Below are positions 1,912 to 64,000 of a DNA stretch of 64,000 nt, piece by piece. The position numbers and the translations under genes are program-made. Position 1 is the first letter of the stretch. Each line of letters begins with the position of its first letter. The stretch is from Nanobdellota archaeon (GTDB taxonomy: Archaea > Nanobdellota > Nanobdellia > Pacearchaeales > GW2011-AR1): positions 15,371 through 79,370 of the forward strand of contig JBBSXO010000005.1 in assembly GCA_038045705.1 (NCBI GenBank). The letters run 5' to 3'. The notes under the pieces were generated by a model. The model saw only the letters and a list, made by a program, of their open reading frames with translations, searched no databases and had not been told where the DNA came from.

Positions 1912-3975
1912 TTACTTAGACTCAAATATCTCAATATTATTTTTATCTGCCCCATCAATGTTTCCAATATAGCTAGGTTTAGTTATATGCATTAAATTAA
2001 AATTAGAATAAACAAAATCTTTTGTTTCTTGATTAACATTTGTTCTAAATCTCGAATCTGCAATAATCATAACTTTAGCCTCTTTAGATGCGATACTTTT
2101 TAATTCATCTAAATTTATCCATTGGATGTTATTATATATTGAGATAGTTTTATTTTCTTTATAATATGTATAATATGGCCTAAGATAATCATTTAGAATA
2201 TAATCTATTTTAATATAAGGAGCCATATTATACATATCAGTGGTCACAACTTTAGCTCCAGACGTATTTAATTCAGTAAGCAAGTCATAGTTAGTCATTA
2301 CAAAATTACCTGAAATTGAACTAAATGAATAAGGGTCTGTAAATATAGATTTAGTAATTAAATAATTTGGTAAAAGATTATCCTTTGAATATGTTGAAGT
2401 AGTAGGGTAATTTAAGTCTACTGGGGTAATTAAATAAATTAACAAACTTAAAATTAGTATAACTCCTAAAGTTCTTTTCTTTAAAGAGGTTGATAAAATA
2501 AAATATAAATAAGATGTAAATATGATTATTAAGAAAAACAAACTTTGCCTATAGCGTATAGGATTTTTTTGAAAAAAGAAAGAAAAGAATAAAAGTTCGA
2601 TAAACAATTGGAATAAGAATATCTGTAAAAAAGGATTAATCTTAATTCTTTTCTTTAAAATAATAATTGCCCCAATCAAGAAAACTAATAATAGCCTTAA
2701 TGGGCTAATTAAGAAATTAAGTTTTTTTATTCCAGAAACTAAAAAATTTATGCTTAAAAAGTTTAAATTAATCAAATTAGTTTGGGTAGGTTCGAAACCA
2801 GGAAGAGTAAGGCTTATCCATTTAGACATGACGAAATATTGAATAAGAAAACAGAAGACTATCAAAAATATTGGGATAAAATAGCTTTTATCTTTATTTT
2901 TAAATGCTAACAAAAATAAAACTGGAATTAATAGAAACACATATTCATAATTTAATCCCAATAATATTGAAAGTAAAATAAACGAAAATTTCTTTTCAGA
3001 AGGTGAAAAAAAACATATTAAATAAAGAAACCATACATAGAAAAATAGGATCATTAAATAGTGTTTTCCGTGAAATGAATAAAAAATGAAGTAAGATAAT
3101 ATTGAGATCAAACCTGCACAAAATAAAGCTGTTTTTTTATCAAATAATTTCTTTGCGAAAAAATAAGATATTATTATAACACCTATTCCAAAGACTAAAG
3201 AAATAGATCTAAGGGAAATCAATGGATTGTTTACTATTATAGTCAGCCAATATGCTGGGTATGTGTAAATAAAATTTCTTAAATATAGTCCCCCTGAGTC
3301 CAAGAAAGGCAAAATATTCCCTTTGGCAAAATTATTAAATATAATATAATAAATTCCTTCATCAATTGAATAACCAACTTTATTTAAGTTCCAAATCCGT
3401 AAAATAAAACCTACAATTAAAATAATAGCAAGTCCCAATGTATATCCCCAGCCTTCCTTATACACCCACTTAACTACACTCCTCAAACCCCAAACTCTAC
3501 TTATTCTCGGAAATCTATGCTGAAAGTCACTTGCTCTTTGTTGCTCTTTACTTTCTTCTATTTGCTTTTCATTTTCCATTTCTCGCTCGATCCTGTTATG
3601 GTTAGCGTAAAAAGCAAAGAAACCAAACGCTACACCCAATATGATAATATGTGTGTTTCTTTCAGTGATAAAATCAAGTTTTAGGAATTGATTTATTGCA
3701 AGAGTTATAAGTATTGCAAGAAAGAAATAGGGAGAAGTTTGAAAGAAAGAATCCATAAAATGAGTCGATCTGTTGTGGAAGTGATTTAATTTTGATTTAT
3801 ATAGAATGGATAATGCAATAGAAAAAACTACTATAAAAAAAAGAAAAGTAGAAGTAAAAAATATAGGTAGTTGAATAATTTGAAACTGACTTAAAATTAA
3901 TAATCCAAGAGAAACAATAGCCAGATTAAGAAATAAAATATATGTTGATTTATATGCCTGTTCTTTTCGCATCAT
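1912..3975 (-). CDS. GT-C fold membrane glycosyltransferase (ArnT/PMT-like, GT39/GT83-type)
   Basis: The 687-aa protein has more than 10 TM helices. The loop motif 'GYSIDEGIYY' resembles the ArnT/PMT family loop motifs. Confidence 0.55.
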   Translation of the reverse strand: MMRKEQAYKSTYILFLNLAIVSLGLLILSQFQIIQLPIFFTSTFLFFIVVFSIALSILYKSKLNHFHNRSTHFMDSFFQTSPYFFLAILITLAINQFLKLDFITERNTHIIILGVAFGFFAFYANHNRIEREMENEKQIEESKEQQRASDFQHRFPRISRVWGLRSVVKWVYKEGWGYTLGLAIILIVGFILRIWNLNKVGYSIDEGIYYIIFNNFAKGNILPFLDSGGLYLRNFIYTYPAYWLTIIVNNPLISLRSISLVFGIGVIIISYFFAKKLFDKKTALFCAGLISILSYFIFYSFHGKHYLMILFFYVWFLYLICFFSPSEKKFSFILLSILLGLNYEYVFLLIPVLFLLAFKNKDKSYFIPIFLIVFCFLIQYFVMSKWISLTLPGFEPTQTNLINLNFLSINFLVSGIKKLNFLISPLRLLLVFLIGAIIILKKRIKINPFLQIFLFQLFIELLFFSFFFQKNPIRYRQSLFFLIIIFTSYLYFILSTSLKKRTLGVILILSLLIYLITPVDLNYPTTSTYSKDNLLPNYLITKSIFTDPYSFSSISGNFVMTNYDLLTELNTSGAKVVTTDMYNMAPYIKIDYILNDYLRPYYTYYKENKTISIYNNIQWINLDELKSIASKEAKVMIIADSRFRTNVNQETKDFVYSNFNLMHITKPSYIGNIDGADKNNIEIFESK

Positions 3976-50983: not shown

Positions 50984-51056
50984 GCCTCTGTAGCTCAGCC
51001 GGTAGAGCACCAGTTTCGTAAACTGGGGGTCGGGGGTTCAATCCCCTCCAGAGGCT
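50984..51056 (+). tRNA. tRNA-Thr (anticodon CGU)
   Basis: The acceptor stem is GCCUCUG/CAGAGGC. The D arm is GCUC-AGCCGGUA-GAGC. The anticodon stem-loop is CCAGU-UUCGUAA-ACUGG, giving anticodon CGU. The T arm is GGGGG-UUCAAUC-CCCUC and the discriminator is U. The total is 73 nt with no encoded CCA. Confidence 0.85.
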
Positions 51057-54282: not shown

Positions 54283-54579
54283 TTACTCTTCAACTTTATG
54301 CTCTTCTAGGAATGGTGTATCATGTACGCCGTTGTCCATTGTTTCAGGATTTTCGTTTGACAGATTCTTAATCATTTCTTCATACATCTCCCCGGTTTCA
54401 TTAATCCACGTTTTATTTCCTTCGAGACTTTCTTTTTTATCATTGAGCATCTCTAATCTATGTTTGTTCCAAGCCTTTAATGCGCCTTCTTTAGTTTTAT
54501 GAACACTTTCAATAGAGTAATGTTCTGGACCATAATCTCCTATAATGAAAACTTTCTTTTCATCTTTCTCCCAAAACAC
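54283..54579 (-). CDS. Hypothetical acidic small protein
   Basis: It is a 98-aa ORF. Confidence 0.3.
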   Translation of the reverse strand: MFWEKDEKKVFIIGDYGPEHYSIESVHKTKEGALKAWNKHRLEMLNDKKESLEGNKTWINETGEMYEEMIKNLSNENPETMDNGVHDTPFLEEHKVEE

Positions 54580-54613
54580 AATATTTATATAGTGTTATCA
54601 TTATAATGATAGT

Positions 54614-55255
54614 ATGGATATTGAGACTTTAAACCCTTATGTCATTAGAATTTTGATTTCTGCTAGAGATCAGGATAGCATGAGCTCTATTGCAAAGAGA
54701 ATAGGCTTATCTTATGGTTGGACCCATAAGTGGATTAGTGTATTAATCAAAGAGGGAGTATTCAAAGAAAAATGGAATGGAATAATATTGCAGGAGGATA
54801 ATCAAAGTTATAAAAAAATAATGCAGTTCATCAAGAATACTATAAATCCAATTAATTTATACTATTCAACATTACCTTTAATGGGAATATCTTATTCATT
54901 GACGCAAACTGATGCAGTTTATGTATGGACTAATGGAGGATATAATATTGCAAGATACAAAGAGTTTTATCCAATATTTATAAAAATTGAAAAGAAAGAT
55001 TATCAAACATTTTTGTATTACTGTAATAAATTGGGATTAAATATTAAGGCTAAGGACGGGACTTTTTATGACCCTAAATTAGTTAAAAAATTAATCTCTG
55101 TGAAAAATGGAAAGTATGATGTGGACTCTTTAGAAGAAACCATCGATTTTATGAAGAATAATATTTATAATTTTGAACCTGCTTTAGAGATGATCGATGA
55201 AATGTATCATAAAAAGTTAGGATATGAATATAAAGAAGTAAGTTCATTATCATGA
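54614..55255 (+). CDS. AbiEi-like putative transcriptional regulator/antitoxin
   Basis: The 213-aa protein has an N-terminal wHTH-like region. Its 4-nt overlap with the downstream nucleotidyltransferase gene suggests an operon. Confidence 0.35.
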   Translation: MDIETLNPYVIRILISARDQDSMSSIAKRIGLSYGWTHKWISVLIKEGVFKEKWNGIILQEDNQSYKKIMQFIKNTINPINLYYSTLPLMGISYSLTQTDAVYVWTNGGYNIARYKEFYPIFIKIEKKDYQTFLYYCNKLGLNIKAKDGTFYDPKLVKKLISVKNGKYDVDSLEETIDFMKNNIYNFEPALEMIDEMYHKKLGYEYKEVSSLS

Positions 55256-55923
55256 AGGAATTAATAATTAAGGAAAACAATATTTTTGATATTTTGCAGA
55301 GATTTATCGATGCAAAATTAGATTTTGTAATTGTTGGGGGATATGCTGTTTCATCTTATAAGCACCGATTCTCTGTTGATGCAGATATAGTTATTCAATC
55401 CAAAGACTTAGAAAATTTTGAGTTAATACTAAAAAAGGAAAAGTTCAAGAAGGGTTTTGAAAAAGACCTAGATAATCCTTACTCTTCAAGATTTATGAGA
55501 TATGAAAAAGATTCTGCAAGCATTGATTTGCTTATTGATGGTATCGCCTCAAGAACAACAAACGCTTCCTTTGGTTATAACCTTCTGCTTCAAAATTCAT
55601 CAAAAAGAAAAGTAATAGGCATAGAAAGAGAAATTACAGTTATGGTTCCAAGTAAAGAATTATTAATCATTATGAAGATCCATTCTGGAAGGTTAACTGA
55701 TTTTAGAGATATTGCAGCTATAGCAAAAGAAACTAATCTTGAAATAATAAAGAAGTTAATGTTTATTGGAGACTTAAAAGTATTACATGAGAATTTAGAG
55801 AAACTTAATCATGCAGTTCATGACAAAAACTTTATCGATTCATTTAAAGGAGTCTTCATAGAGAAAAAGTTTGATGTTGATTTAAAACAAGTAGAAAAAA
55901 TAAGTCATTTAAAGGAAGGTTGA
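55252..55923 (+). CDS. AbiEii-like nucleotidyltransferase (DUF1814-type) putative toxin
   Basis: 'DFVIVGGYAVSSYKHRFSVDADIVI' resembles the AbiEii motif (lKGGtAl...y..Rfs.DiD). Confidence 0.45.
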   Translation: MKELIIKENNIFDILQRFIDAKLDFVIVGGYAVSSYKHRFSVDADIVIQSKDLENFELILKKEKFKKGFEKDLDNPYSSRFMRYEKDSASIDLLIDGIASRTTNASFGYNLLLQNSSKRKVIGIEREITVMVPSKELLIIMKIHSGRLTDFRDIAAIAKETNLEIIKKLMFIGDLKVLHENLEKLNHAVHDKNFIDSFKGVFIEKKFDVDLKQVEKISHLKEG

Positions 55924-56097
55924 TTTAACCAATCAATCAATCTTATCTTGACAATACCTTTAAACTCTAGCAATCTTTGAGGTGTTATATATTATTTGGT
56001 GATCGAGGCATTTACGGACCAAAAAAGCTTATAATTTGACTAAACTACAACGATATTGATGATAAGAGGAGTTGCACGCACCTAACTTATAGATTAA

Positions 56098-56226
56098 TGC
56101 GGGAGGGAGGATTCGAACCTCCGAAGGCACTAAGCCACGAGATGGCTTACATCTCGCTTAGCTACTCGCTCTAATGAGAGAGTGACGTCTTAAGTCTCGC
56201 GCATTTAACCGCTTTGCTACCCCCGC
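56098..56226 (-). tRNA. tRNA-Leu (anticodon UAA) with a ~45-nt intron after position 37
   Basis: The reverse-complement reads GCGGGGG-UA-GCA-AAGCGGUUAAA-UGC-G-CGAGA-CUUAAG-[45-nt intron]-A-UCUCG, then the long variable arm UGGCUUAGUGCCUUC, then GGAGG-UUCGAAU-CCUCC-CUCCCGC-A. The class II architecture is consistent with Leu. Confidence 0.7.
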
Positions 56227-56382
56227 AATCGGCATATCTGTCCACTGCGCGGATTTCCCCGAGCAGTTCAGCTGATAGTATAAGAAGAGCAGAAGCGTTG
56301 CTGATGCTCATCTGTGACTGTCTGCTAACAGGCAAGACACACCGCAGGGGCAACACATGGAGGCTATTTAACACTATCGAAC

Positions 56383-57585
56383 ATGCATGAGGTAAACAAC
56401 ACTGAGGACGAGAGAATACGACCAGTTGATGTAGTTGCGTCACTAGAGCGCGCGACCACTCGGTTTATGGCCAGGTCAGACATCAGTCAGGCCAACAAGG
56501 ATCATGTCGCCAAGTTCTTGCGAGAAGCAGCACTTGGCAAGACCGTCGTGGGGCGCGCGAGAAAACAGATCGGCCCGGAGCGACGCCATTTATACCTGAT
56601 GCAACTGACTATTCTGATCGATTTCGTGGGAAAGAACCTCGACGAGGTTGTGATGTCCGATATGGAGAGGTTCGTTGAGGCTCTGGACGGCGACAAGATT
56701 CGTTCGCGCCGGCCACAGCGAAAGGGGCAGAAGCTGGTCGTGGAACCTAGGCCCTTGAGCAGGCGGTACTGCGCCGACATCAAGATCACCGTCCGAAAGT
56801 TTTACATGTGGCTCTGGGGTGGGAATCGGCGAGTGCCGGAACTCGTGGACTGGTTTGACACTTCCTTTGAACTAAAGGATGTGCCCGCGCTCACCGAGGC
56901 AGATGTTGGGCGCATGCTGGACCACTGCAGGACTGTGCAGCAGCGCGCGATCATTCAGGTCTTGTTCGACGGAGGACTGCGTCTGGGGGAGCTACTAAAC
57001 GTTCGCCTACGGCATGTCTGGAGAAGAACGGTCGTGCCGAATGATCCAATGACGGTTTGTTATTTCGTGCGTGTGCCTTTCAGCAAGACTCTCCGTCGAA
57101 CCGTCGTGCTCCCCATGCGCGACAGCACTCGTGCTCTCGGTCTGTGGCTCGAGAAACACCCCGGTCGACCAGTTGTGCTCCCCGACGGTACTCTCGACGC
57201 GGACGACTTGAGCCTGCAACTTTTCCCCATGACCGGAGAGGCGATCAGGCAGATGCTACGCAGAGTGGGTAAGTGTGCTCTCGGTCGCCGGGTGTATCCA
57301 CATCTCATGCGCCACACCTCAGCCACATTCTGGAGCAACAAGGTTTCCTACTTCAAAATGTGCAAGCGCTTCGGTTGGACCATGGTCAGCAAGATGCCCC
57401 AGCGCTACATCGATCGAACTGGCGTTGATGAGGAGGAGATCGCCAACATCTATTTTGCCAAACAGAAGGGCGAGTCGCAACGAGGGGCAGACGAGCTTCT
57501 GATTGAAACGCCCGAGGTTCAGGCTGAGGTCAAGCCCGTCAAGGGATCGTTGCCGCGTCCGCAGTCCATGCGTTCCGCAAGCTAA
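56383..57585 (+). CDS. int: Tyrosine recombinase / phage-type integrase
   Basis: 'LFDGGLRLGELLNVRLRHV' is box I Arg. 'HLMRHTSATFW' is box II HxxR. A downstream Tyr-containing segment is 'QRYIDRTG'. The gene is about 55-60% GC. It starts about 160 nt from the tRNA-Leu 5' end. Confidence 0.85.
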   Translation: MHEVNNTEDERIRPVDVVASLERATTRFMARSDISQANKDHVAKFLREAALGKTVVGRARKQIGPERRHLYLMQLTILIDFVGKNLDEVVMSDMERFVEALDGDKIRSRRPQRKGQKLVVEPRPLSRRYCADIKITVRKFYMWLWGGNRRVPELVDWFDTSFELKDVPALTEADVGRMLDHCRTVQQRAIIQVLFDGGLRLGELLNVRLRHVWRRTVVPNDPMTVCYFVRVPFSKTLRRTVVLPMRDSTRALGLWLEKHPGRPVVLPDGTLDADDLSLQLFPMTGEAIRQMLRRVGKCALGRRVYPHLMRHTSATFWSNKVSYFKMCKRFGWTMVSKMPQRYIDRTGVDEEEIANIYFAKQKGESQRGADELLIETPEVQAEVKPVKGSLPRPQSMRSAS

Positions 57586-57877
57586 GAACTGTGGCTAATG
57601 GTGCTGGCGGCCACTACCCAGTTGACTGAGAAATGCGGATCTGGTCAGTCTGCGTCGGCCTTTCTGGCGCAGCGGTGCTGGCGCATAGAGTGCCGCGTCG
57701 CGGCGCATGCGTGAGGTGACGTCGGTGCACGGAGGTTGTGACCGGCCAGCTGTTGCGTTGCACGGCCGATGACCTGAGTCGTGCGTTCTCGTTGCGCGTT
57801 CCGTGACGGGCGGTCGCGGCGCGCGCCAGCATTGGGATGTTCAAAGCCCGCCGGAAGAAGCGGGAAGGTGAGAGTTT

Positions 57878-58234
57878 TTAGGCAGTCTTTCGCGACAATC
57901 CAACAATCGACAGACACCCAACCAATCCAGCCAGAATCAACTCGCCGCGCCAGGTCATTAGGAGCCAGTTGCCAACGCAGCCACAGACGGCCGGCCGCAC
58001 GACGATGGCGTGCCCTGTCCCTAAGAACGCAATCACGACCCCGACGAATAGCCCAAGGCGTCGATACCGACTCCAGCAAAGCAGCACGGCAGTTGCAGTT
58101 TCGAGAAGCGTGACTCCCCAATAAAGAGACTGTGAATACGAAACACCCACTGGGACACCGCCAACAACTTTGGCGACGGCGACCGTGCCAAGCAATACCG
58201 CCAACACCAAAGGCACAACTATCCCTCTAGCCAT
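57878..58234 (-). CDS. DoxX/MauE-like small polytopic membrane protein
   Basis: 'MARGIVVPLVLAVLLGTVAVAKVV...GLFVGVVIAFLGTGHAIVV...LAGLVGCLSIVGL' has 3-4 TM helices. The longer listed ORF (to 58360) would overlap the next gene, so the internal start was chosen. Confidence 0.4.
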   Translation of the reverse strand: MARGIVVPLVLAVLLGTVAVAKVVGGVPVGVSYSQSLYWGVTLLETATAVLLCWSRYRRLGLFVGVVIAFLGTGHAIVVRPAVCGCVGNWLLMTWRGELILAGLVGCLSIVGLSRKTA

Positions 58235-58281
58235 AGCCTTACCATGGTTTGTTGTCCGACCGAGTCCACCGTTTGCTCCCG

Positions 58282-58884
58282 CTAGTCTATTGGCGGCATC
58301 GTTAGGGTGTAGCAGCTGAAATTGCAATCTCGGCAAATTGCCACAAGCTTCAGCTGGCACTCAGCTGCAGGTGGGCAAGCAGTGCCTACACAGGCAGCAA
58401 GGGAACGTGTCACTTTGCACTCACTCCATGTGTTGCACCCAGCTGCAGACGCCACAAGTGGGTCGCCGCTCTCTGTTGGCCCTACGAAGAACCCCCAGTC
58501 GGTACAAGTTGGGCCAGTGGTCGTACCGTCGAAGTTCCTTCTGGTATAGCAGTAGCTATCCGCGTGAGTAGTCGCATTTCCGCCACGGAACAATGGCATC
58601 GACACAGTCATTATGCAAGTAGGAGTCGACTCTATGCACTGGCGAAGTTCGTTCTCCTCTTCGCAAACACAATAACCGTCTCCAGTAGCATCAACCATGA
58701 CGAAATCGTACAAGTCTCCGCCGTAGCAAGGCGGCGGGACGGCGCCAATGTCGGGTCCATAACCGTACTGCGGCTTGCACCCATACCACTCACAATCGGT
58801 ATCGATCGGACTATCGACCGCCGCGCTTGCTGCGATCGAGAGAAACATTGGCACCAAGAAGACGCCGACGAACGATGAAGTCAT
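58282..58884 (-). CDS. Secreted disulfide-rich protein
   Basis: The signal peptide is 'FVGVFLVPMFLSIAASAAVDSP'. About 24 Cys occur in 180 aa with CxC/CxxC spacing. Confidence 0.45.
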   Translation of the reverse strand: MTSSFVGVFLVPMFLSIAASAAVDSPIDTDCEWYGCKPQYGYGPDIGAVPPPCYGGDLYDFVMVDATGDGYCVCEEENELRQCIESTPTCIMTVSMPLFRGGNATTHADSYCYTRRNFDGTTTGPTCTDWGFFVGPTESGDPLVASAAGCNTWSECKVTRSLAACVGTACPPAAECQLKLVAICRDCNFSCYTLTMPPID

Positions 58885-58908
58885 GAGAGAGTCCTTATTT
58901 CTTGTTGG

Positions 58909-59736
58909 TTACTTACCATCCCATGTAACGCGTCCCTGAATGTTGCTTAGTAGTTGTTTTGCTTCCTCAGACGTAATAGTGCCTTCACGACAGAACCATA
59001 CTACAATCAAACCTAGCAGCTCTCGTCCCTTTTCATGCATTACCGCCTCTCCAAGTGAGCTTCCGGGCATCATATCGCGATTCGCCATATGCACTGTATC
59101 ACCAATTGTCTGAATCATGTTGTAGCCACTAGCCTCTGGCGGCAACACGCCTGAGCGAAACCGTGTTCCGCGTGGCAGAGTGACGGTTGCAGTCCCGCTC
59201 TTAGCTCGGAGTTCGGCCATTTCCTTTGCGGCGATCTCATGTCGAACGCGCAAAATGTTTAGCAGCTCACGTTGCGGGCCACGGAGCAAACCCTCCAGCT
59301 CGCGCCTCTTGTCAGGGGGTAAGTAAACGTCGCGCGGGTTTAGCATTTCATGCCGGAACAGGCTATTCGCTGTAACCGCTACTGCAGACGTGATGATATA
59401 CCTAGTGAGAGGGTATCTCTGAACACGGATAGCCTGCCACTCCGCGTCCGATTCAGGACTCGGCGCATGCTCATTCGTACTCTGAGCATTTGGTTCGAAA
59501 GACTCTAAGCTGTCATAGTCTACTGTACTATTCGCGGAAGAGAGAACGGCGGTTGCAAGAGCTTCGGCATCGCCCGTACCTGACGTGGGCACGATTGCGT
59601 CTCCCGGAGTGACGACCAACGGCGTTGGCCGCGGTATTCTTGCAAGCCAGACACCAACAGCGATTCCTGAGAGCGCGACTAGCGCCAAAGCCCAGCGGTG
59701 CTTTTTCGAGGTAGCCAAGTTAACCTCTCGATGCAA
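58909..59736 (-). CDS. Membrane-anchored hypothetical protein
   Basis: An N-terminal TM helix 'WALALVALSGIAVGVWLA' is followed by a ~240-aa soluble domain. The codon usage is GC-rich and consistent with its neighbours. Confidence 0.4.
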   Translation of the reverse strand: MHREVNLATSKKHRWALALVALSGIAVGVWLARIPRPTPLVVTPGDAIVPTSGTGDAEALATAVLSSANSTVDYDSLESFEPNAQSTNEHAPSPESDAEWQAIRVQRYPLTRYIITSAVAVTANSLFRHEMLNPRDVYLPPDKRRELEGLLRGPQRELLNILRVRHEIAAKEMAELRAKSGTATVTLPRGTRFRSGVLPPEASGYNMIQTIGDTVHMANRDMMPGSSLGEAVMHEKGRELLGLIVVWFCREGTITSEEAKQLLSNIQGRVTWDGK

Positions 59737-60520
59737 GCTGGCCGTGAGCCAGCAGAAGAAGTCGAGTGGAGCAACTGCAAGAGACGGTAACGGGTGTTGC
59801 GCTAGAAGTCAATAGAGAAGCAGAATCTTGCAGCTAGCAACCGGGTCTGGATCTCACCCTGGAACAAGCGACCGAGCTTGCTGCCACCGGCAGTGGTGGC
59901 CGCGAGTGGCCGCGGTGACATGTTGTTAATTTGCTACTTGTACAAGACATCGCCTCTCCGTAACGGATGGAGGATGCTCATCCCAGTATTCGAGGAGAGG
60001 CGGGCCGCAGCTCTGGAAGCCGCGGAACGTAGGAAGCCCCGTCGGGTGATTCACGCAACCTCACCGGAAGGACACGATCCAGGGCCGCCTCGTACCAGGC
60101 CGCCAGTTCCTCGCGCCGCGCTGGGCGCTCGCCAAGTTCGATTCTTCGCATGGCGACACCTGCCCGCCTCAGCGGCGCGATCCAGGAACAGCGGCTCACC
60201 CATGCCTGGCAGACGACCCTGTTCCACGGCAACCACACCCATGCCGAACCGGTGGACAAACCGCCCCGTCCAAAGGAGCCCAGCAGCAACGTTCGCCAGC
60301 AATACCACGAGAAGTGATCGGAGCGTTCTCCCACACCATACGAGCTTCCATCCCGAAAAGCGAAGTACTGGTAGCTCAAGCCTTGAGCGCCGAGATACGC
60401 GACGGTATCGAACGGAGATCTTGAGATACGTGCAACCAATCGCGACGGCTACAGACACAGCTAATGGGCAACCTACTGGCACTTCCATACGAGTCCTTCC
60501 TTGCGTTCGGTTGCCACTAT

Positions 60521-60859
60521 CTAGAGCGTATAGACCAGTCTTGGTCTGGAGTCCGCAGGATCGCAGACAGCTTCATACAAGTAGATGACTGGTTGCCGGT
60601 TGGCATCGAGTATCTGATACCTACGAAGTTGCGGTGGCAGGTCCTGACGGCGAATACGTCGACCATCGTGTTCGAGCGATTTGAGTGCAGTGGCCACAGC
60701 AGACAGCGACTCCCCCAGCGCTACGCTGATTTGACATGTGGACTGAGGACCCTCATCGAGTAAATACGCCACCACACGATCCTCCAACGCTCCTACGTCG
60801 TGGATAGAAGGGGAGTCCCCGCCATAAAGCCCGCCTATGCTCATGTCTGTTCTCAACAC
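60521..60859 (-). CDS. Putative winged-helix transcriptional regulator
   Basis: 'LEDRVVAYLLDEGPQSTCQISVALGESLSAVATALKSLEHDG' has a wHTH pattern. Confidence 0.4.
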   Translation of the reverse strand: MLRTDMSIGGLYGGDSPSIHDVGALEDRVVAYLLDEGPQSTCQISVALGESLSAVATALKSLEHDGRRIRRQDLPPQLRRYQILDANRQPVIYLYEAVCDPADSRPRLVYTL

Positions 60860-61249
60860 CTGAGAGATTAAGAAGGTGCGCCACTACTACCTTGTAGTGC
60901 CTGGATTCTATTTATCCAATTTTCGTTTGAGTCAGTCTTTGGGAGTAAGCTCGACAACCCTCGAAAACGGGAAGAACGTTATCAATCTAAACGACCCGAG
61001 TTTGGCAAGCAACCACAATTCTCGATTGAGCCATGACGACCATCGGTATGGCAGCTACTTGTGAACACCGTCAGCGTGGCCAATGGTATTATCATCGAGG
61101 TAGGAATCCTCCTGCACCGGCGAACGACTGGGTCGCGCACCCCGGGTCCCTTCTTCGCCAGCTTTTGCCAAGTGAACTCCATCGTCGAGCTGAACGGCCT
61201 GAACGAGAACCGTACTCCGTAGGCCACATGGGAACGGCATTGGCGACTT

Positions 61250-61915
61250 TCACTTTGGCGGTGGCACAGTTTGACCAAAGGTAAGTGAATCGATCCCAAG
61301 GAGTTTGCGGGAGAACTCCTCCTGAATCGCTGCATGAGTCCTTCTCCTCGTTCTCTCAAACAATGCGAGAAGTGTTGGTGCAACCGTGTGTGTTGGCACC
61401 ACCTGAGTGGACTCCATGGTCTCAAGCGGTCCTCGCCATGACTGTCGGACGGCAAGTAGCTCCAAGTCTTCGGCCACAACAATCCCAAGGCCAAGAAGAT
61501 TGCTACGTACATTAGTGAATGCGTCCCAAACGGCGGCTTCGATCCTTAGCCAGTCGTTGGCGTTGCGATCATCTTCTCCGCGGACCCTGGATAGGAGTTG
61601 ATCACGGGTGCTACTCGTCACTCCGGAATACGTGTCAGCGTTTTCCATGGCCTTCGCAAGCCAACTGTCGATTTCGAATCTCCTTTTGATCGTCCCTTGA
61701 AGCGTAATCGTCTCCGCCCTCGCAGCTTCCTGTTCGAGGTTCGCGCTGATGCATGCTGCGGCCGTAAACCCGACCATGGCGACCAAGGTAGCCCATCCCT
61801 TTCCATTCAGCTTGTACCTGGTTTTACCATCGTAGCGCCGTATTTGCGTCTTGCAAGTTAGCCACTCGGCTGCGAGGCCACAGAGAGCTACGGCGATTAC
61901 GAAAACCACAGTCAC
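61250..61915 (-). CDS. Hypothetical membrane protein
   Basis: It has two N-terminal hydrophobic helices and a coding-like 221-aa frame. Confidence 0.35.
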   Translation of the reverse strand: MTVVFVIAVALCGLAAEWLTCKTQIRRYDGKTRYKLNGKGWATLVAMVGFTAAACISANLEQEAARAETITLQGTIKRRFEIDSWLAKAMENADTYSGVTSSTRDQLLSRVRGEDDRNANDWLRIEAAVWDAFTNVRSNLLGLGIVVAEDLELLAVRQSWRGPLETMESTQVVPTHTVAPTLLALFERTRRRTHAAIQEEFSRKLLGIDSLTFGQTVPPPK

Positions 61916-62120
61916 ATTTACTGCTCCGAGTTAGCTGTACTAGTTCACTGCAGGCATGTAGAGTCTTGAGGTCCAACACAAGTAAATGCTCACTGCCCTA
62001 TGTCTGGAGGTAAACCGCCACACGACGATGGCGCTCCTGGTATCGGTTCAGGGGACGCTGGGGAACGCTTTAGCTGACTCCCAAGCGCGCAATATTCTAA
62101 CCAACGAAGGTTGAAGCCGG

Positions 62121-63110
62121 CTAGCGTATGATCGTGGCTTGGCTTGATGCGATACCCATCGCAAACAATGGTGAGAACGTAATGCACTGTGTTACGGCTG
62201 ACAGTCCCGAAGCTGGCCCTGAATACGTGACTGGAAGTCCGGCCACACCTCCTGTGAAGAATAGGAGCGGATCGTTGACGTCGAAGTTCACCAAGATACC
62301 TGGAAGGCTTGGGGAGTTTGGGACAGCGGGACGAAAGCTCACCGCGACGAAGTGTAACGCTTGGGCGTCATTAGAATTGATCATAATTGTGGCAACTCCA
62401 ATCCCGGGAACGGTGGCTAGGCAATACGCAGATCCGATGGCTCCGTTTACGTAGAGACGTGCCTCGGGCTTGTTCTCCTGGTAACTTGGCAATAGTCCAC
62501 CGGTTACCCTGACAGTGTACTCCTCGATGTCACCGAAGAAAGAACCGGACGGTGGTGGAGGCCCAGGGTGACCGAACCCAACCCTTATGCGAGTCTCCGC
62601 AACGGCATTGCTAGGAACTCGAATACTTGCGCTGAAGAACACGACCTGGTTGACGCTCACGAGGTTCAAGTCGTAGCGCTCACCAGCGTCGTCGAAGTAC
62701 CGATTGCCATTCCAATCGACGTACGCCCGTGCTTGTCCGATGAGCCCATTGTTGAAGACACCAAGGGTTAGGAGCACTGTCTGGCAGGGAACCACTATAG
62801 CTGTCTGGTTAAGGAAGCTTGAGAAGCCAGAAAACCCCGGTGGACACAGGGGGCTGGGTATCGTTGTGTCATTCACGACACTAGCGAAAGACACCAAGTT
62901 TACGTACGAGCGAAGAAACCCAAGATGACACACGTCACCTACCGTTGTCGGATAGGCCTCCAGGTTGGTATTGACGCAGAGGTTGACCGTGGGGCACTGG
63001 GTTATGAGCGGCCGGCTGAATGGGATTACCATCAGCAAAAACAACACGCGTGAAGACATCGCCATGGGACGTGTGGTATGAGTTGGTAGTGTGGTTCGAG
63101 GTGGTCGCAT
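62121..63110 (-). CDS. Secreted hypothetical protein (start probably at MAMSS.., ~63065)
   Basis: A signal-peptide-like 'MAMSSRVLFLLMVIPFSRPL' follows a non-hydrophobic leader. The body is Gly/Pro/Val-rich. Confidence 0.4.
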   Translation of the reverse strand: MRPPRTTLPTHTTRPMAMSSRVLFLLMVIPFSRPLITQCPTVNLCVNTNLEAYPTTVGDVCHLGFLRSYVNLVSFASVVNDTTIPSPLCPPGFSGFSSFLNQTAIVVPCQTVLLTLGVFNNGLIGQARAYVDWNGNRYFDDAGERYDLNLVSVNQVVFFSASIRVPSNAVAETRIRVGFGHPGPPPPSGSFFGDIEEYTVRVTGGLLPSYQENKPEARLYVNGAIGSAYCLATVPGIGVATIMINSNDAQALHFVAVSFRPAVPNSPSLPGILVNFDVNDPLLFFTGGVAGLPVTYSGPASGLSAVTQCITFSPLFAMGIASSQATIIR

Positions 63111-63255
63111 GCGTCAGTGCCGAGTCAGCATTCGCATGAGTTCCGAATTCACAAAGTAGCGGCTGATTGAATGTTTCTGACACAAACTGCTGGATCAATA
63201 CGGATACTGCCTCTGTGGTTTCATGATTGATGGCTTTCTTGACTGAATGCCTATT

Positions 63256-63915
63256 CTATTCTAGAAACTCAAGCGCTTCCTTCAACAGTTTTGCGACCTT
63301 GTCCTTCTCGATCTGGGGGGCGTCCTTTGTAATCGAGAACGGATAGACACGCAGACCATCCTTGCTCTTCTTGATGTAGAGCTTCTTGCGACCAGGTTGC
63401 CGCTTGCCTGCCTCCTGACGGAGGACACGCTTCAACTGCTTAGCGCTGAGAGTCTCCGACTCGATACGCTTCTTCCACTCCGAAGGACTCTCGACGCCAA
63501 AGTCGTGCAGCGCCTTGGCGTGCGCCATCGTGACGATCTTGCCGTCGAGGCATTTCTGTAGCGCGCTCGAGAAGCTCAACAGCTCCAGATAGCGATCAAC
63601 CTGCTTTTGGGAGAGGCCGAAGAGTTCCTGGAGATCGTTCTTCTTCAGACCCTGCCTTTGCGCCAACCAGAGGGCATTGGCTCTATCCACCGGTGCCAGA
63701 TTCTTGCGCACGACATTCTTCGTGAACGCGACCCGAAGCGCCTGGTTGTCGGCCATCTCGTGCACGACAGCCTGAATCGAGGACCAGCCCAGTTCCTGCG
63801 CGGCCCTGCAGCGTCTGAAGCCATCGATGATCCGATACGGCTTCGGGCCGAGGAGATCGACGGGTTGCTCGAGTCCATCGTGCTCCAGGCTGCGCCGCAC
63901 ATCTGCAACGGCCAT
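63256..63915 (-). CDS. ParB/Srx-like N-terminal domain protein (partition-type)
   Basis: 'KPYRIIDGFRRCRAAQELGWSSIQAVVHE' is the ParB N-terminal (GxRRxxA) box. A helical C-terminal half follows. Confidence 0.65.
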   Translation of the reverse strand: MAVADVRRSLEHDGLEQPVDLLGPKPYRIIDGFRRCRAAQELGWSSIQAVVHEMADNQALRVAFTKNVVRKNLAPVDRANALWLAQRQGLKKNDLQELFGLSQKQVDRYLELLSFSSALQKCLDGKIVTMAHAKALHDFGVESPSEWKKRIESETLSAKQLKRVLRQEAGKRQPGRKKLYIKKSKDGLRVYPFSITKDAPQIEKDKVAKLLKEALEFLE

Positions 63916-64000
63916 GGAAACGCGGCACTGAAACGTCGTGTTCGACGAGTCGATGTCTGCAAGGCTGATGGTCTGGTAGGCACCATCGAGTGCTTTGGGA

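What the first reader, a model, noticed from the sequence alone, without database searches (positions are those of the whole stretch)
56098..64000. Abrupt 30% to 60% GC switch exactly at a tRNA-Leu gene, followed by an intact tyrosine integrase and a ParB-like gene
Everything left of about 56.1 kb is about 30% GC with archaeal AT-rich codon usage. Beginning within about 150 nt of the 5' end of the intron-containing tRNA-Leu(UAA), the sequence becomes 55-65% GC to the window end. The first gene of that segment is a full-length tyrosine recombinase (box I R, HxxR, Y). The last is a ParB N-terminal-domain protein. The genes in between are secreted, membrane or regulator-like with GC-rich codon usage. 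This is the classic signature of a site-specific integrative (plasmid- or virus-like) element inserted at a tRNA gene. The 30-point GC difference means the element is either a very recent acquisition from a high-GC donor or the contig is a chimeric assembly joined at or near the tRNA. One conceivable donor is the high-GC host of an episymbiotic DPANN archaeon. Either outcome matters for interpreting this genome.
Basis: partly seen in the sequence, partly recalled or inferred. Interest (0 to 1): 0.85.

Follow-up and report, generated by a model that had tools for sequence, protein, structure and literature searches.

The report
Bacterial-type island inserted at archaeal tRNA-Leu
A 55% GC mobile element with bacterial-looking genes has been spliced by site-specific recombination into the first 10 bases of a tRNA-Leu gene in a 31% GC DPANN archaeon; this looks like a recent cross-domain transfer, not an assembly error.

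Summary
GC is 31.0% for 1-56097 and 55.6% for 56227-64000. The boundary is an intron-containing tRNA-Leu(UAA) at 56098-56226 (minus strand). An intact tyrosine recombinase follows at 56383-57585, and a ParB gene is cut by the window end.

A three-way comparison indicates a real recombination joint:
- A related low-GC strain in the same aquifer (L002, the "empty site") matches the window up to 56226 and then continues with low-GC genes.
- Three high-GC relatives of the integrase (69-72% aa) carry a conserved site upstream of the integrase. It matches the window from 56217 rightwards.
- The two homologies overlap in 10 bp, CTACCCCCGC, the first 10 nt of the tRNA.
- That overlap is shorter than any assembler k-mer, and an independent assembly contains the same joint.

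NCBI accession order places the syntenic far-flank gene (ZIP transporter) nine proteins after the last island gene seen. This suggests a bounded island of roughly 15-25 kb.

The cargo is bacterial in type: an ECF sigma factor and a kinase+TPR pair matching defence candidate PDC-M71. The integrase clade is mainly Planctomycetota.

Insertion at the 5' end is unusual and removes the tRNA's native TATA box. The far junction and read support were not seen.

The parts
56098..56226 (-). tRNA-Leu(UAA) gene with a ~45-nt intron (about 56144-56188) and a long variable arm. The sequence is intact. It acts as the attB-derived arm of the junction.
   Evidence: Rfam RF00005 at 47.0 bits, full length. The orthologue in the empty-site strain L002 scores 47.1 bits. 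Differences from L002 in the anticodon stem, and in the intron segment that pairs with it, are compensatory.
56217..56226 (.). Putative crossover core CTACCCCCGC (GCGGGGGTAG, nt 1-10 of the tRNA). It is the only stretch shared by the empty site (L002) and by the integrase-proximal sites of related elements (L088, L091, L092).
   Evidence: Window/L002 homology ends at 56226. Window/L088, L091 and L092 homology begins at 56217. The 10-mer occurs once in the 64-kb window, once in L002, and never in L007.
56227..56382 (+). Element arm (P') between the core and the integrase start. It is 50% GC, contains the conserved motifs TTCAGCTG and GATAGTATAAG, and replaces the tRNA's native upstream region.
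   Evidence: 80% nt identity to L088 over 92 nt and 73% to L091; also aligned with L092. L002 has TTTTAAA centred near -28 upstream of its tRNA. The window has GGGGAAATCCGCG at that position (read from the sequences).
56383..57585 (+). Tyrosine recombinase (integrase), 400 aa, intact. NCBI MEK6909173.1 is a 372-aa call of the same gene.
   Evidence: PF00589 at E 2e-8. Catalytic residues lie in invariant alignment columns. Closest relatives are 69-72% identical in high-GC contigs; named relatives are Fontivita pretiosa and Phycisphaerales. The nearest solved structure is archaeal XerA 5HXY at E 4e-4.
57878..58216 (-). Small hydrophobic protein (112 aa as called in the independent contig; the maximal ORF runs to 58360).
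   Evidence: no family match.
58282..58884 (-). Cysteine-rich protein of 200 aa with an N-terminal hydrophobic segment; probably secreted.
   Evidence: no family match.
58909..59736 (-). Protein of 227-275 aa, function unknown.
   Evidence: only a sub-threshold SHOCT-like match.
60521..60859 (-). Small winged-helix-like regulator candidate (107-112 aa).
   Evidence: Sub-threshold HTH_5/ArsR match at E 0.009; called as a gene in L007 and L008.
61250..61915 (-). Protein of 221 aa, function unknown (NCBI MEK6909174.1, AABX23_03935).
   Evidence: no family match.
62121..63110 (-). GEVED-domain protein (314-329 aa), probably secreted.
   Evidence: PF20009 at E 1.2e-8, 36 bits against a cutoff of 24.4.
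63256..64000 (-). ParB/Spo0J-family protein, cut by the window end. Full length is 289 aa, to window-equivalent 64125 (NCBI MEK6909175.1).
   Evidence: ParB_N plus HTH_ParB. TIGR00180 at 68.9 bits against a cutoff of 58.45. The full gene is read in L007:5641-6510.
54577..56062 (+). Host-side neighbour, not part of the island. It is a two-gene cassette (213-aa wHTH-like protein plus 223-aa DUF6036/AbiEii-like nucleotidyltransferase). It is 99.9% identical to L002, while the surrounding genome is 76-80% identical.
   Evidence: The same proteins occur in several Nanoarchaeota and Pacearchaeota MAGs.

Best explanation
The window holds the left junction of a mobile element. The element is at least 13.5 kb and probably about 15-25 kb. 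It has been inserted into the chromosome of a Pacearchaeota-like DPANN archaeon (31% GC).

The element's tyrosine recombinase most likely recombined a site about 160 bp upstream of its own gene with an identical 10-11 bp stretch, (G)CTACCCCCGC, at the extreme 5' end of the host tRNA-Leu(UAA) gene. The result on this side is: host flank, complete tRNA sequence, core, element arm, integrase.

The tRNA's own TATA-box promoter should now lie at the far end of the element, next to a second copy of the core.

The element came recently from a high-GC bacterium or from a plasmid-like element circulating in such bacteria, with a Planctomycetota/Phycisphaerae-like integrase lineage. It still has about 55% GC and GC-rich codon usage. 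It carries bacterial-type cargo: an ECF sigma factor, a ParB, and a Ser/Thr kinase plus TPR pair that matches the candidate anti-phage system PDC-M71.

Shown: the composition break, the intact tRNA and integrase, the three-way homology pattern that defines the 10-bp joint, reproducibility in a second assembly, and the bacterial affinities of the cargo.

Inferred: catalysis by this integrase, the structure of the far junction, the donor lineage, and whether the tRNA is still expressed.
For: (1) Empty site. L002 comes from the same sample and is a related strain (76-80% nt elsewhere). It matches window 54562-56226 at 98.6% and then continues with low-GC archaeal genes (NTP_transf_2, DUF1761, FUR, ZIP).

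(2) attP-like sites. L088/L089, L091 and L092 have integrases 69-72% identical to the window's and lie in wholly high-GC contigs without a tRNA. They align with window 56217-56383. They also share a further arm with each other to the left of CTACCCCCGC that the window lacks.

(3) The two homologies overlap by exactly 10 bp. That 10-mer occurs once in the 64-kb window.

(4) Independent assembly. Contig L001 (ERZ1292624, 3867 nt, coverage 27) is identical to 56008-59874. It links strain-specific host bases (56063, 56089-56095), strain-specific tRNA bases (56137-56200) and island sequence. The stretches shared with the co-occurring strain are 26-41 bp long, shorter than a 55-mer. Its start at 56008 equals the SNP at 56063 minus 55.

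(5) Island and host-flank contigs co-occur in at least three further data sets.

(6) NCBI numbering of the source MAG runs DUF6036 = MEK6909172, integrase = ..173, ParB = ..175, kinase = ..177, TPR = ..178, all on the 85,135-nt contig. The ZIP transporter orthologous to L002's right flank is MEK6909187.

(7) An independent case. Woesearchaeota contig L011 is 40% GC and contains a ~7-kb tract of 55-61% GC that begins with a 50%-identical integrase and returns to 40% GC.

(8) Bacterial affinities. The integrase clade contains Fontivita, Phycisphaerales, Planctomycetota, Gemmatimonadota and Krumholzibacteriia, at those hosts' own GC. Sigma70_r2 scores above the Pfam cutoff and NCBIfam gives ECF matches. 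The kinase and TPR proteins match PDC-M71A/B at E 3e-89 and 1e-91, and the TPR protein has homologues on Deinococcus, Rhizobium and Arthrobacter plasmids, with an adjacent protein kinase annotated in the Deinococcus hit.
Against: The far junction was never seen. The source contig could not be fetched, and the extra 5.8 kb from L007 holds no second core or tRNA fragment.

No reads were available, so coverage parity is untested. Contig coverages in ERZ1292624 are 27 (L001) and 18 (L007), and the assembly breaks at 59820-59874 for an unknown reason.

All five relatives examined, including the Fontivita chromosome, carry the site unrecombined, and no tRNA lies within 10 kb of the integrase in the bacterial loci. 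The site may therefore normally serve another purpose, such as multimer resolution, with the tRNA acting as a pseudo-site.

The insertion removes the TATA box of what may be the only tRNA reading UUA, which is 63% of Leu codons in three host genes. That should be costly unless the element supplies a promoter.

The integrase's closest characterised relatives are archaeal: the XerA profile and structure, and haloarchaeal plasmid integrases at about 25% identity. The hosts of the closest relatives are unknown, so the direction of transfer is not proven.
Confidence: 0.72

Rival explanations
1. Assembly or binning artefact. The low-GC archaeal contig and a high-GC bacterial contig were joined in silico, or by chimeric library molecules, at or near the tRNA.
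For: There is a 25-point GC step at a single base and completely different tetranucleotide usage. The island is fragmented in other assemblies into 3.9-kb and 9.9-kb contigs with coverages 27 and 18. No reads were available.
Against: The sequence shared at the joint with the element lineage is only 10 bp, below any assembler k. The joint sits exactly on the conserved integrase-proximal site of related elements. An independent contig carries the same joint with strain-specific bases on both sides. The contig ends that might have suggested a graph problem (56008, 56125) are explained by SNPs against the co-occurring strain at k=55 and k=31. The syntenic ZIP gene is numbered nine proteins after the island. 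A second DPANN contig has such a tract embedded on both sides.
Confidence: 0.05
2. The insertion is real but not a normal integration reaction. One version is that a plasmid-like element, whose recombinase and adjacent site normally resolve multimers (Cre/loxP- or Xer-like), formed a cointegrate with the chromosome at a pseudo-site. Another version is that host repair joined the two DNAs at a 10-bp microhomology.
For: Every relative examined, including a finished bacterial chromosome, keeps both arms of the site together, and none is next to a tRNA. A ParB gene is present. The best profile and structure matches are to XerA-type recombinases. The attB half-site to the left of the core shows no clear dyad with the right half (read from the alignment).
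Against: The break is exactly at the conserved site next to the recombinase gene, with repeated TTCAGCTG and ATAAG motifs on both arms. That layout resembles an attP with arm sites. A random microhomology joint would not be expected to fall there.
Confidence: 0.13
3. The element is a native archaeal (DPANN-associated) plasmid or provirus that simply keeps an unusually high GC content. It is not a recent import from bacteria.
For: The wider integrase family has many DPANN members that sit just downstream of tRNA genes. The closest characterised relatives are archaeal. The hosts of the closest relatives (L088, L091, L092) are unknown. A second DPANN genome carries a similar high-GC tract.
Against: DPANN members of the family have host-like GC (27-50%) and are only 24-41% identical. 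The window's clade is otherwise made up of high-GC bacteria, including a cultured planctomycete. An ECF sigma factor has no known role with archaeal RNA polymerase (established knowledge), and the kinase+TPR module has homologues on bacterial plasmids. The island uses TTA for 3% of Leu codons against 63% in host genes.
Confidence: 0.12

Closest known systems
Genomic islands and prophages integrated in tRNA genes by tyrosine integrases (Williams 2002 scheme; Islander database, PMC4383910)
   Same: An integrase gene lies at the end of the island next to the tRNA gene. A short identity is shared by the element site and the tRNA. The tRNA sequence is complete after insertion.
   Different: The classical targets are the anticodon loop, the T loop or the 3' end, so the tRNA keeps its promoter (PMC8371274). 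Here the identity is nt 1-10 of the tRNA, the island lies on the 5' side, and the native TATA box is displaced.
pTN3-like integrases of Thermococcales (as summarised in PMC8371274)
   Same: According to that review this is the only archaeal group whose attB is the 5' half of a tRNA gene, and tRNA-Leu is mentioned for pTN3. The recombinant tRNA is expressed from the element's integrase promoter region. That is the solution this island would also need.
   Different: In the pTN3 type the att site lies inside the integrase gene, which is split on integration ('suicidal'). Here the integrase is intact and the site is about 160 bp upstream of it. The identity is 10-11 bp, not half a tRNA. The element looks bacterial.
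Archaeal XerA and the SNJ2/pNOB8-type archaeal integrases
   Same: These give the best profile hit (NF040815 recomb_XerA_Arch, E 2e-13) and the best solved-structure hit (XerA 5HXY). The only plasmid-database hits are haloarchaeal integrases.
   Different: All scores are far below family cutoffs (50.6 bits against 220; about 25% identity). XerA acts at dif and is not an integrase. Membership of any named archaeal integrase family was not shown.
PADLOC candidate defence system PDC-M71 (kinase + TPR protein)
   Same: Both island proteins match the two PDC-M71 models nearly end to end (E 3e-89 and 1e-91). They are adjacent with overlapping reading frames.
   Different: PDC-M71 is only a candidate system, and no function has been tested here. 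The pair lies outside the window (window-equivalent about 64.9-67.4 kb).

Membership tests
Tyrosine recombinase / phage integrase (PF00589) | Catalytic domain match above the family threshold | tested here: met
   34.6 bits against a cutoff of 27.1, E 2e-8, residues 170-344; phrog_1 integrase at E 7e-18.
Tyrosine recombinase / phage integrase (PF00589) | Catalytic residues R-K-HxxR-(H/W)-Y | tested here: met
   R200, K235, H307, R310, W332 and Y342 are invariant columns in a 32-sequence alignment.
tRNA-gene integrated island (Islander-type definition) | Integrase-bearing foreign DNA abutting a tRNA gene whose sequence is complete | tested here: met
   The tRNA scores the same as its orthologue in the empty site.
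tRNA-gene integrated island (Islander-type definition) | Uninterrupted site in a relative (attB) and a site on the element lineage (attP) that share a core at the joint | tested here: met
   L002 for attB. L088, L091 and L092 for attP-like sites; these are relatives, not this element's own attP. The overlap is the 10 bp CTACCCCCGC.
tRNA-gene integrated island (Islander-type definition) | Displaced tRNA fragment or direct repeat of the core at the far end | not testable with these tools
The only indirect support is that ZIP = MEK6909187 follows TPR = MEK6909178.
tRNA-gene integrated island (Islander-type definition) | Target in the anticodon loop, T loop or 3' end, with the tRNA kept on its own promoter | tested here: not met
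   The core is nt 1-10 of the tRNA. The L002-type TATA box is absent upstream of the window tRNA.
pTN3-like (suicidal, 5'-half-targeting) integrases | att site inside the integrase gene, which is split on integration | tested here: not met
   The integrase ORF is intact and collinear with its relatives. The core lies 157 nt upstream of the start codon.
ParB/Spo0J partition proteins | ParB N-terminal domain plus HTH domain above thresholds | tested here: met
   PF02195 at 39.4 bits (cutoff 26.3), PF17762 at 38.3 bits (cutoff 22.6), TIGR00180 at 68.9 bits (cutoff 58.45). No ParA partner or parS site was looked for.
Integrative conjugative element | Relaxase, coupling protein or type IV secretion genes | tested here: not met
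   None found among the 13 proteins in the 13.5 kb seen. The unseen remainder could still hold them.
Provirus | Capsid, terminase, portal or other virion genes | tested here: not met
   PHROGs matched only the integrase and ParB. No relative of the integrase was found in IMG/VR.
ECF sigma-70 factors (bacterial) | Regions 2 and 4 | tested here: inconclusive
   Sigma70_r2 scores 26.8 bits, above the cutoff of 24. Region 4 scores 19.5 bits, below the cutoff of 25.7. TIGR02937 scores 35.2 bits, below the cutoff of 42.9.
PDC-M71 candidate defence system | Adjacent genes matching both PDC-M71A and PDC-M71B | tested here: met
   E 2.7e-89 (profile 11-346 of 352) and E 1e-91 (profile 1-474 of 515). 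The genes are at L007:3866-4867 and 2376-3869.

The most novel reading that the evidence does not exclude
An intact bacterial mobile element of a Planctomycetota-type lineage, with its own recombinase, ParB, ECF sigma factor and a candidate anti-phage module, has very recently crossed the domain boundary. It integrated site-specifically into the 5' end of the main leucine tRNA gene of a DPANN archaeon. A related element did the same independently in a Woesearchaeota genome from another aquifer. This would imply repeated direct DNA traffic, and perhaps physical association, between ultra-small archaea and high-GC bacteria. It would also mean an archaeal tRNA now depends on a promoter supplied by a bacterial element.
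Probability: 0.45. Interest if true: 0.85.

Novelty: new variant of a known kind. Interest (0 to 1): 0.72.

Why it matters
Bacterial genes are common in DPANN genomes, but the vehicle and the moment of transfer are almost never seen. Here the vehicle appears to be preserved: recombinase, recombination site, un-ameliorated cargo, an empty-site relative, and attP-like sites in relatives. That makes inter-domain transfer of a mobile element directly testable, by reads, by PCR across both junctions, and by an in vitro recombination assay.

It also matters practically. The 8 kb in the window, and about 15-25 kb in the contig, should not be removed from the MAG as contamination. It also should not be used to infer the archaeon's native metabolism, regulation or defence.

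Finally, it adds a non-suicidal example of integration at the 5' end of a tRNA gene, a rare arrangement. It raises the question of how the archaeon's UUA-reading tRNA-Leu is expressed.

Tried and rejected
- ARAGORN's call of tRNA-Glu(CTC) at 56098-56171 was rejected in favour of the Rfam full-length intron-containing tRNA-Leu.
- I first suspected that contig ends at 56125 (four Logan contigs) and 56008 (L001) marked att-site boundaries. They are explained by the last strain-specific bases against the co-occurring strain at k=31 and k=55.
- I considered that the element's attP might carry most of the tRNA, because the window and L002 tRNAs differ in stem and intron. This was rejected: homology to related elements starts only at nt 10 of the tRNA, and the differences are compensatory orthologue divergence.
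- No direct repeat of the tRNA or core was found in 56400-64000 or in L007.
- Fetching the source contig through the NCBI integrase protein failed. Look-ups of the ParB and GEVED ORFs as read from the window failed because of start-codon or truncation differences.
- Both JGI metagenome scans found nothing, using the core+arm DNA pattern and the integrase protein. Both IMG/VR scans also found nothing.
- The ZIP-orthologue search did not by itself reveal a protein on the 85,135-nt contig. It became informative only through the accession number.
- No convincing att repeats were found at the borders of the Woesearchaeota island L011, and no tRNA is present there. Its right border lies inside a serine-recombinase ORF.
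- Island cargo has almost no homologues beside the related integrases in the 74 genome loci. The only integrase-adjacent match is a 66-aa zinc-finger protein just upstream of the integrase in one Phycisphaerales locus (a second p66 match lies ~8 kb away in another locus).
- ParB homologues are almost all unnamed metagenome proteins, so they gave no taxonomic signal.

Full report
**1. The observation**

The composition break is real and sharp. GC is 31.0% over 1-56097, with 500-nt windows between 21% and 41%. GC is 55.6% over 56227-64000, with 500-nt windows between 52% and 61%. Tetranucleotide distance between host chunks and the island is 0.073, against 0.016 (maximum 0.024) among host chunks. 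GC3 is 52-75% in island ORFs and 17-27% in three host genes. TTA makes up 63% of Leu codons in those host genes and 3% in the island.

Rfam finds a full-length tRNA at 56098-56226 on the minus strand (47 bits). It has anticodon UAA, a long variable arm and a ~45-nt insertion after position 37, so it is an intron-containing tRNA-Leu(UAA). ARAGORN miscalls part of it as tRNA-Glu.

The first high-GC gene is an intact tyrosine recombinase at 56383-57585 (PF00589). Its catalytic R200, K235, H307, R310, W332 and Y342 fall in invariant alignment columns. The last gene is a ParB truncated by the window end. Between them lie a GEVED-domain protein, a small wHTH-like protein and several ORFs with no family match.

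**2. Provenance and extension**

Exact-protein look-ups show that the sequence comes from Hainich groundwater (well H41, 0.1 um filter fraction). It belongs to an NCBI MAG labelled 'Nanoarchaeota archaeon', on a contig of 85,135 nt. Homologues of the host genes are labelled Pacearchaeota or Nanoarchaeota.

An independent ENA contig, L007 (9946 nt), is identical to 59820-64000 and adds 5765 nt beyond the window. All of the added sequence is 51-63% GC. It encodes:
- the full 289-aa ParB;
- a Ser/Thr kinase and a TPR protein that match PADLOC candidate system PDC-M71A/B nearly end to end (E 3e-89 and 1e-91);
- a membrane protein and a 66-aa zinc-finger protein;
- an ECF-type sigma factor (Sigma70_r2 above the Pfam cutoff).

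The kinase and TPR proteins are on the 85,135-nt contig in NCBI as MEK6909177 and MEK6909178. The membrane protein (its 382-aa ENA call) and the sigma factor are also recorded on that contig.

**3. Is the joint real?**

Three kinds of sequence were compared.

(a) Empty site. L002 is a 32-kb contig from the same sample and belongs to a related strain, 76-80% nt identical over ArgRS and the pilin genes. It matches window 54562-56226 at 98.6%. From the base after the tRNA's 5' end it continues with low-GC archaeal genes: NTP_transf_2, DUF1761, FUR, ZIP.

(b) Element-type sites. The closest integrase relatives are 69-72% identical at the protein level. They are L088/L089 from a JGI metagenome and a Logan run, L090/L091 from two NCBI assemblies, and L092 from an ENA assembly. 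All lie in wholly high-GC contigs with no tRNA. Their integrase-upstream regions align with window 56217-56383 (80% and 73% nt). To the left of CTACCCCCGC they share about 40-110 nt with each other but not with the window. The motifs TTCAGCTG and ATAAG recur on both arms, as expected for an attP with arm sites.

(c) The window. It is the hybrid: tRNA arm, then core, then element arm.

The two homologies overlap in exactly 10 bp, CTACCCCCGC (56217-56226), which are tRNA nt 1-10. With L091 and L092 the shared stretch is 11 bp. This 10-mer occurs once in the window and once in L002. A 10-bp identity cannot produce a de Bruijn join. An artefact would also have no reason to fall on the conserved site next to the recombinase gene.

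Contig L001 (3867 nt, coverage 27, assembly ERZ1292624) independently carries the joint. It spans 56008-59874 at 100% identity. It links strain-specific host bases (56063, 56089-56095), strain-specific tRNA bases (56137-56200) and island sequence. The stretches shared with the co-occurring strain are 26-41 bp long, shorter than a 55-mer.

The contig ends that first looked suspicious are explained by strain SNPs. L001 starts at 56008, which is the SNP at 56063 minus 55. Four Logan contigs end at 56125 or 56121, where the last strain-specific base (56095) leaves the final 31-mer.

**4. The far side**

I could not read the far junction.

There is indirect evidence. In the NCBI numbering of this MAG the order is:
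- MutS-like = MEK6909169
- 213-aa protein = ..171
- DUF6036 = ..172
- integrase = ..173
- 221-aa protein = ..174
- ParB = ..175
- kinase = ..177
- TPR = ..178

The ZIP transporter that is 84% identical to L002's right-flank ZIP is MEK6909187. In L002 three genes separate the tRNA from ZIP. This leaves about five further annotated island genes. It suggests a bounded island of roughly 15-25 kb followed by the syntenic host flank. This is an inference from accession order, not a sequence observation.

**5. A second case**

A Woesearchaeota MAG contig from a different aquifer (JACOVP010000005.1, L011/L020) is about 40% GC. It holds a ~7-kb tract of 55-61% GC that starts with a 50%-identical integrase and returns to 40% GC. 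No tRNA or clear att repeat was found there, and the right border falls inside a serine-recombinase ORF. It shows that high-GC tracts led by this integrase clade can be embedded on both sides in DPANN DNA.

**6. Where the element comes from**

In a scan of one genome per species, relatives at 46% identity or more are Fontivita pretiosa (a genome record titled as a strain's complete chromosome), Phycisphaerales/Phycisphaeraceae, Planctomycetota, Gemmatimonadota and Krumholzibacteriia. In those genomes the integrase GC matches the surrounding DNA. The one exception is the Woesearchaeota island.

In a neighbour-joining tree the window groups with L088, L091 and L092, inside this largely bacterial, high-GC clade. 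More distant members (24-41% identity) are frequent in DPANN genomes. They have host-like GC and sit just downstream of tRNA genes in the classical orientation.

Several features point to a bacterial donor: the ECF sigma factor, the kinase+TPR module with homologues on Deinococcus, Rhizobium and Arthrobacter plasmids, and the codon usage.

There are caveats. The best characterised matches of the integrase are archaeal: the XerA profile and structure, and haloarchaeal plasmid integrases at about 25% identity. The hosts of the closest relatives are unknown. No phage hallmark or conjugation gene was found, so the element type (integrative plasmid or island) is open.

**7. Mechanism and consequences**

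The most likely mechanism is that the element's recombinase exchanged strands within the 10-11-bp identity between its own site and the start of the tRNA gene.

Because the identity is at the extreme 5' end, the tRNA sequence is preserved. It scores the same as the orthologue, and its differences from L002 are compensatory. However, its native TATA box is gone. L002 has TTTTAAA centred near -28, and the window has GGGGAAATCCGCG at that position.

The review PMC8371274 states that 5'-half targeting is known in archaea only for pTN3-like integrases and is rare in bacteria. It also states that such recombinant tRNAs are expressed from the element's promoter region. The conserved GATAGTATAAG box, which reads CTTATAC on the tRNA strand at about -55, is a candidate for that role. 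This is speculation.

One point weakens the idea of a normal integration site. All relatives examined, including the Fontivita chromosome, keep both arms of the site together. The site might therefore normally be a resolution site, with the tRNA start acting as a pseudo-site. I give that variant about 13%.

**8. Verdict**

The interpretation as an integrative element at a tRNA gene is supported, with three corrections:
- the insertion is at the 5' end of the tRNA;
- the donor looks bacterial;
- a chimera is unlikely, at about 5%.

This is a new variant of a known kind of system. Its interest lies in apparently preserving an inter-domain transfer of a mobile element together with its recombination site.

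Noticed in passing
window 54577-56062 (and L002:9326-10810): A two-gene cassette (213-aa wHTH-like protein plus 223-aa DUF6036/AbiEii-like nucleotidyltransferase, likely a toxin-antitoxin pair) differs by one base in 1486 nt from a co-occurring strain whose genome is otherwise 76-80% identical. Members of the same 90%-identity protein clusters occur in several other Nanoarchaeota and Pacearchaeota MAGs. It looks like a recently exchanged module sitting on the 3' side of the same tRNA-Leu.
   Followed up: partly
L007:2376-4867 (window-equivalent about 64.9-67.4 kb, outside the window): An adjacent Ser/Thr kinase and TPR protein match the PADLOC candidate anti-phage system PDC-M71A/B almost end to end (E 3e-89 and 1e-91). 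A bacterial-type defence candidate is therefore sitting in an archaeal chromosome.
   Followed up: partly
L011 9850-16790 (JACOVP010000005.1, Woesearchaeota MAG GCA_016177265.1): A second DPANN contig (40% GC) has an embedded ~7-kb tract of 55-61% GC. The tract starts with a 50%-identical integrase and also carries a DUF87/HerA-like ATPase. Its right border lies inside a serine-recombinase ORF whose N-terminal part is low-GC and C-terminal part high-GC.
   Followed up: partly
window 56137-56200 versus L002:10885-10947: The two strains' tRNA-Leu genes differ at 15 positions, confined to the anticodon stem and intron. The changes are compensatory across three strands: the 5' stem strand, an intron copy of it (GCGAGAUG against ACAAGAUG), and the 3' stem strand. 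This suggests the intron's pairing with the 3' exon is under selection.
   Followed up: partly
window 59820-59874: Two contigs of an independent assembly (L001, coverage 27; L007, coverage 18) overlap by 55 nt here, and the assembly breaks for no visible reason (no repeat found). The adjacent 59.7-60.5 kb has no convincing gene. This may reflect cargo heterogeneity of the island in the population.
   Followed up: no
loci L029, L033, L045-L052, L057-L071, L079: The wider integrase family interleaves DPANN or other archaeal members with members from many bacterial phyla in a neighbour-joining tree. The archaeal members usually sit 100-300 nt downstream of a tRNA gene on the same strand (Gln, Gly, Asp, Tyr, Cys). 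Some short contigs could be mis-binned.
   Followed up: partly
window 56383-64000: The NCBI annotation has only one protein (the 221-aa ORF) between the integrase and ParB, although about five ORFs are called there by other pipelines. The high-GC island appears to be under-annotated.
   Followed up: no
window 50984-51056: tRNA-Thr(CGU), 68.7 bits, on the plus strand. It is syntenic with L002:3845-3916.
   Followed up: no
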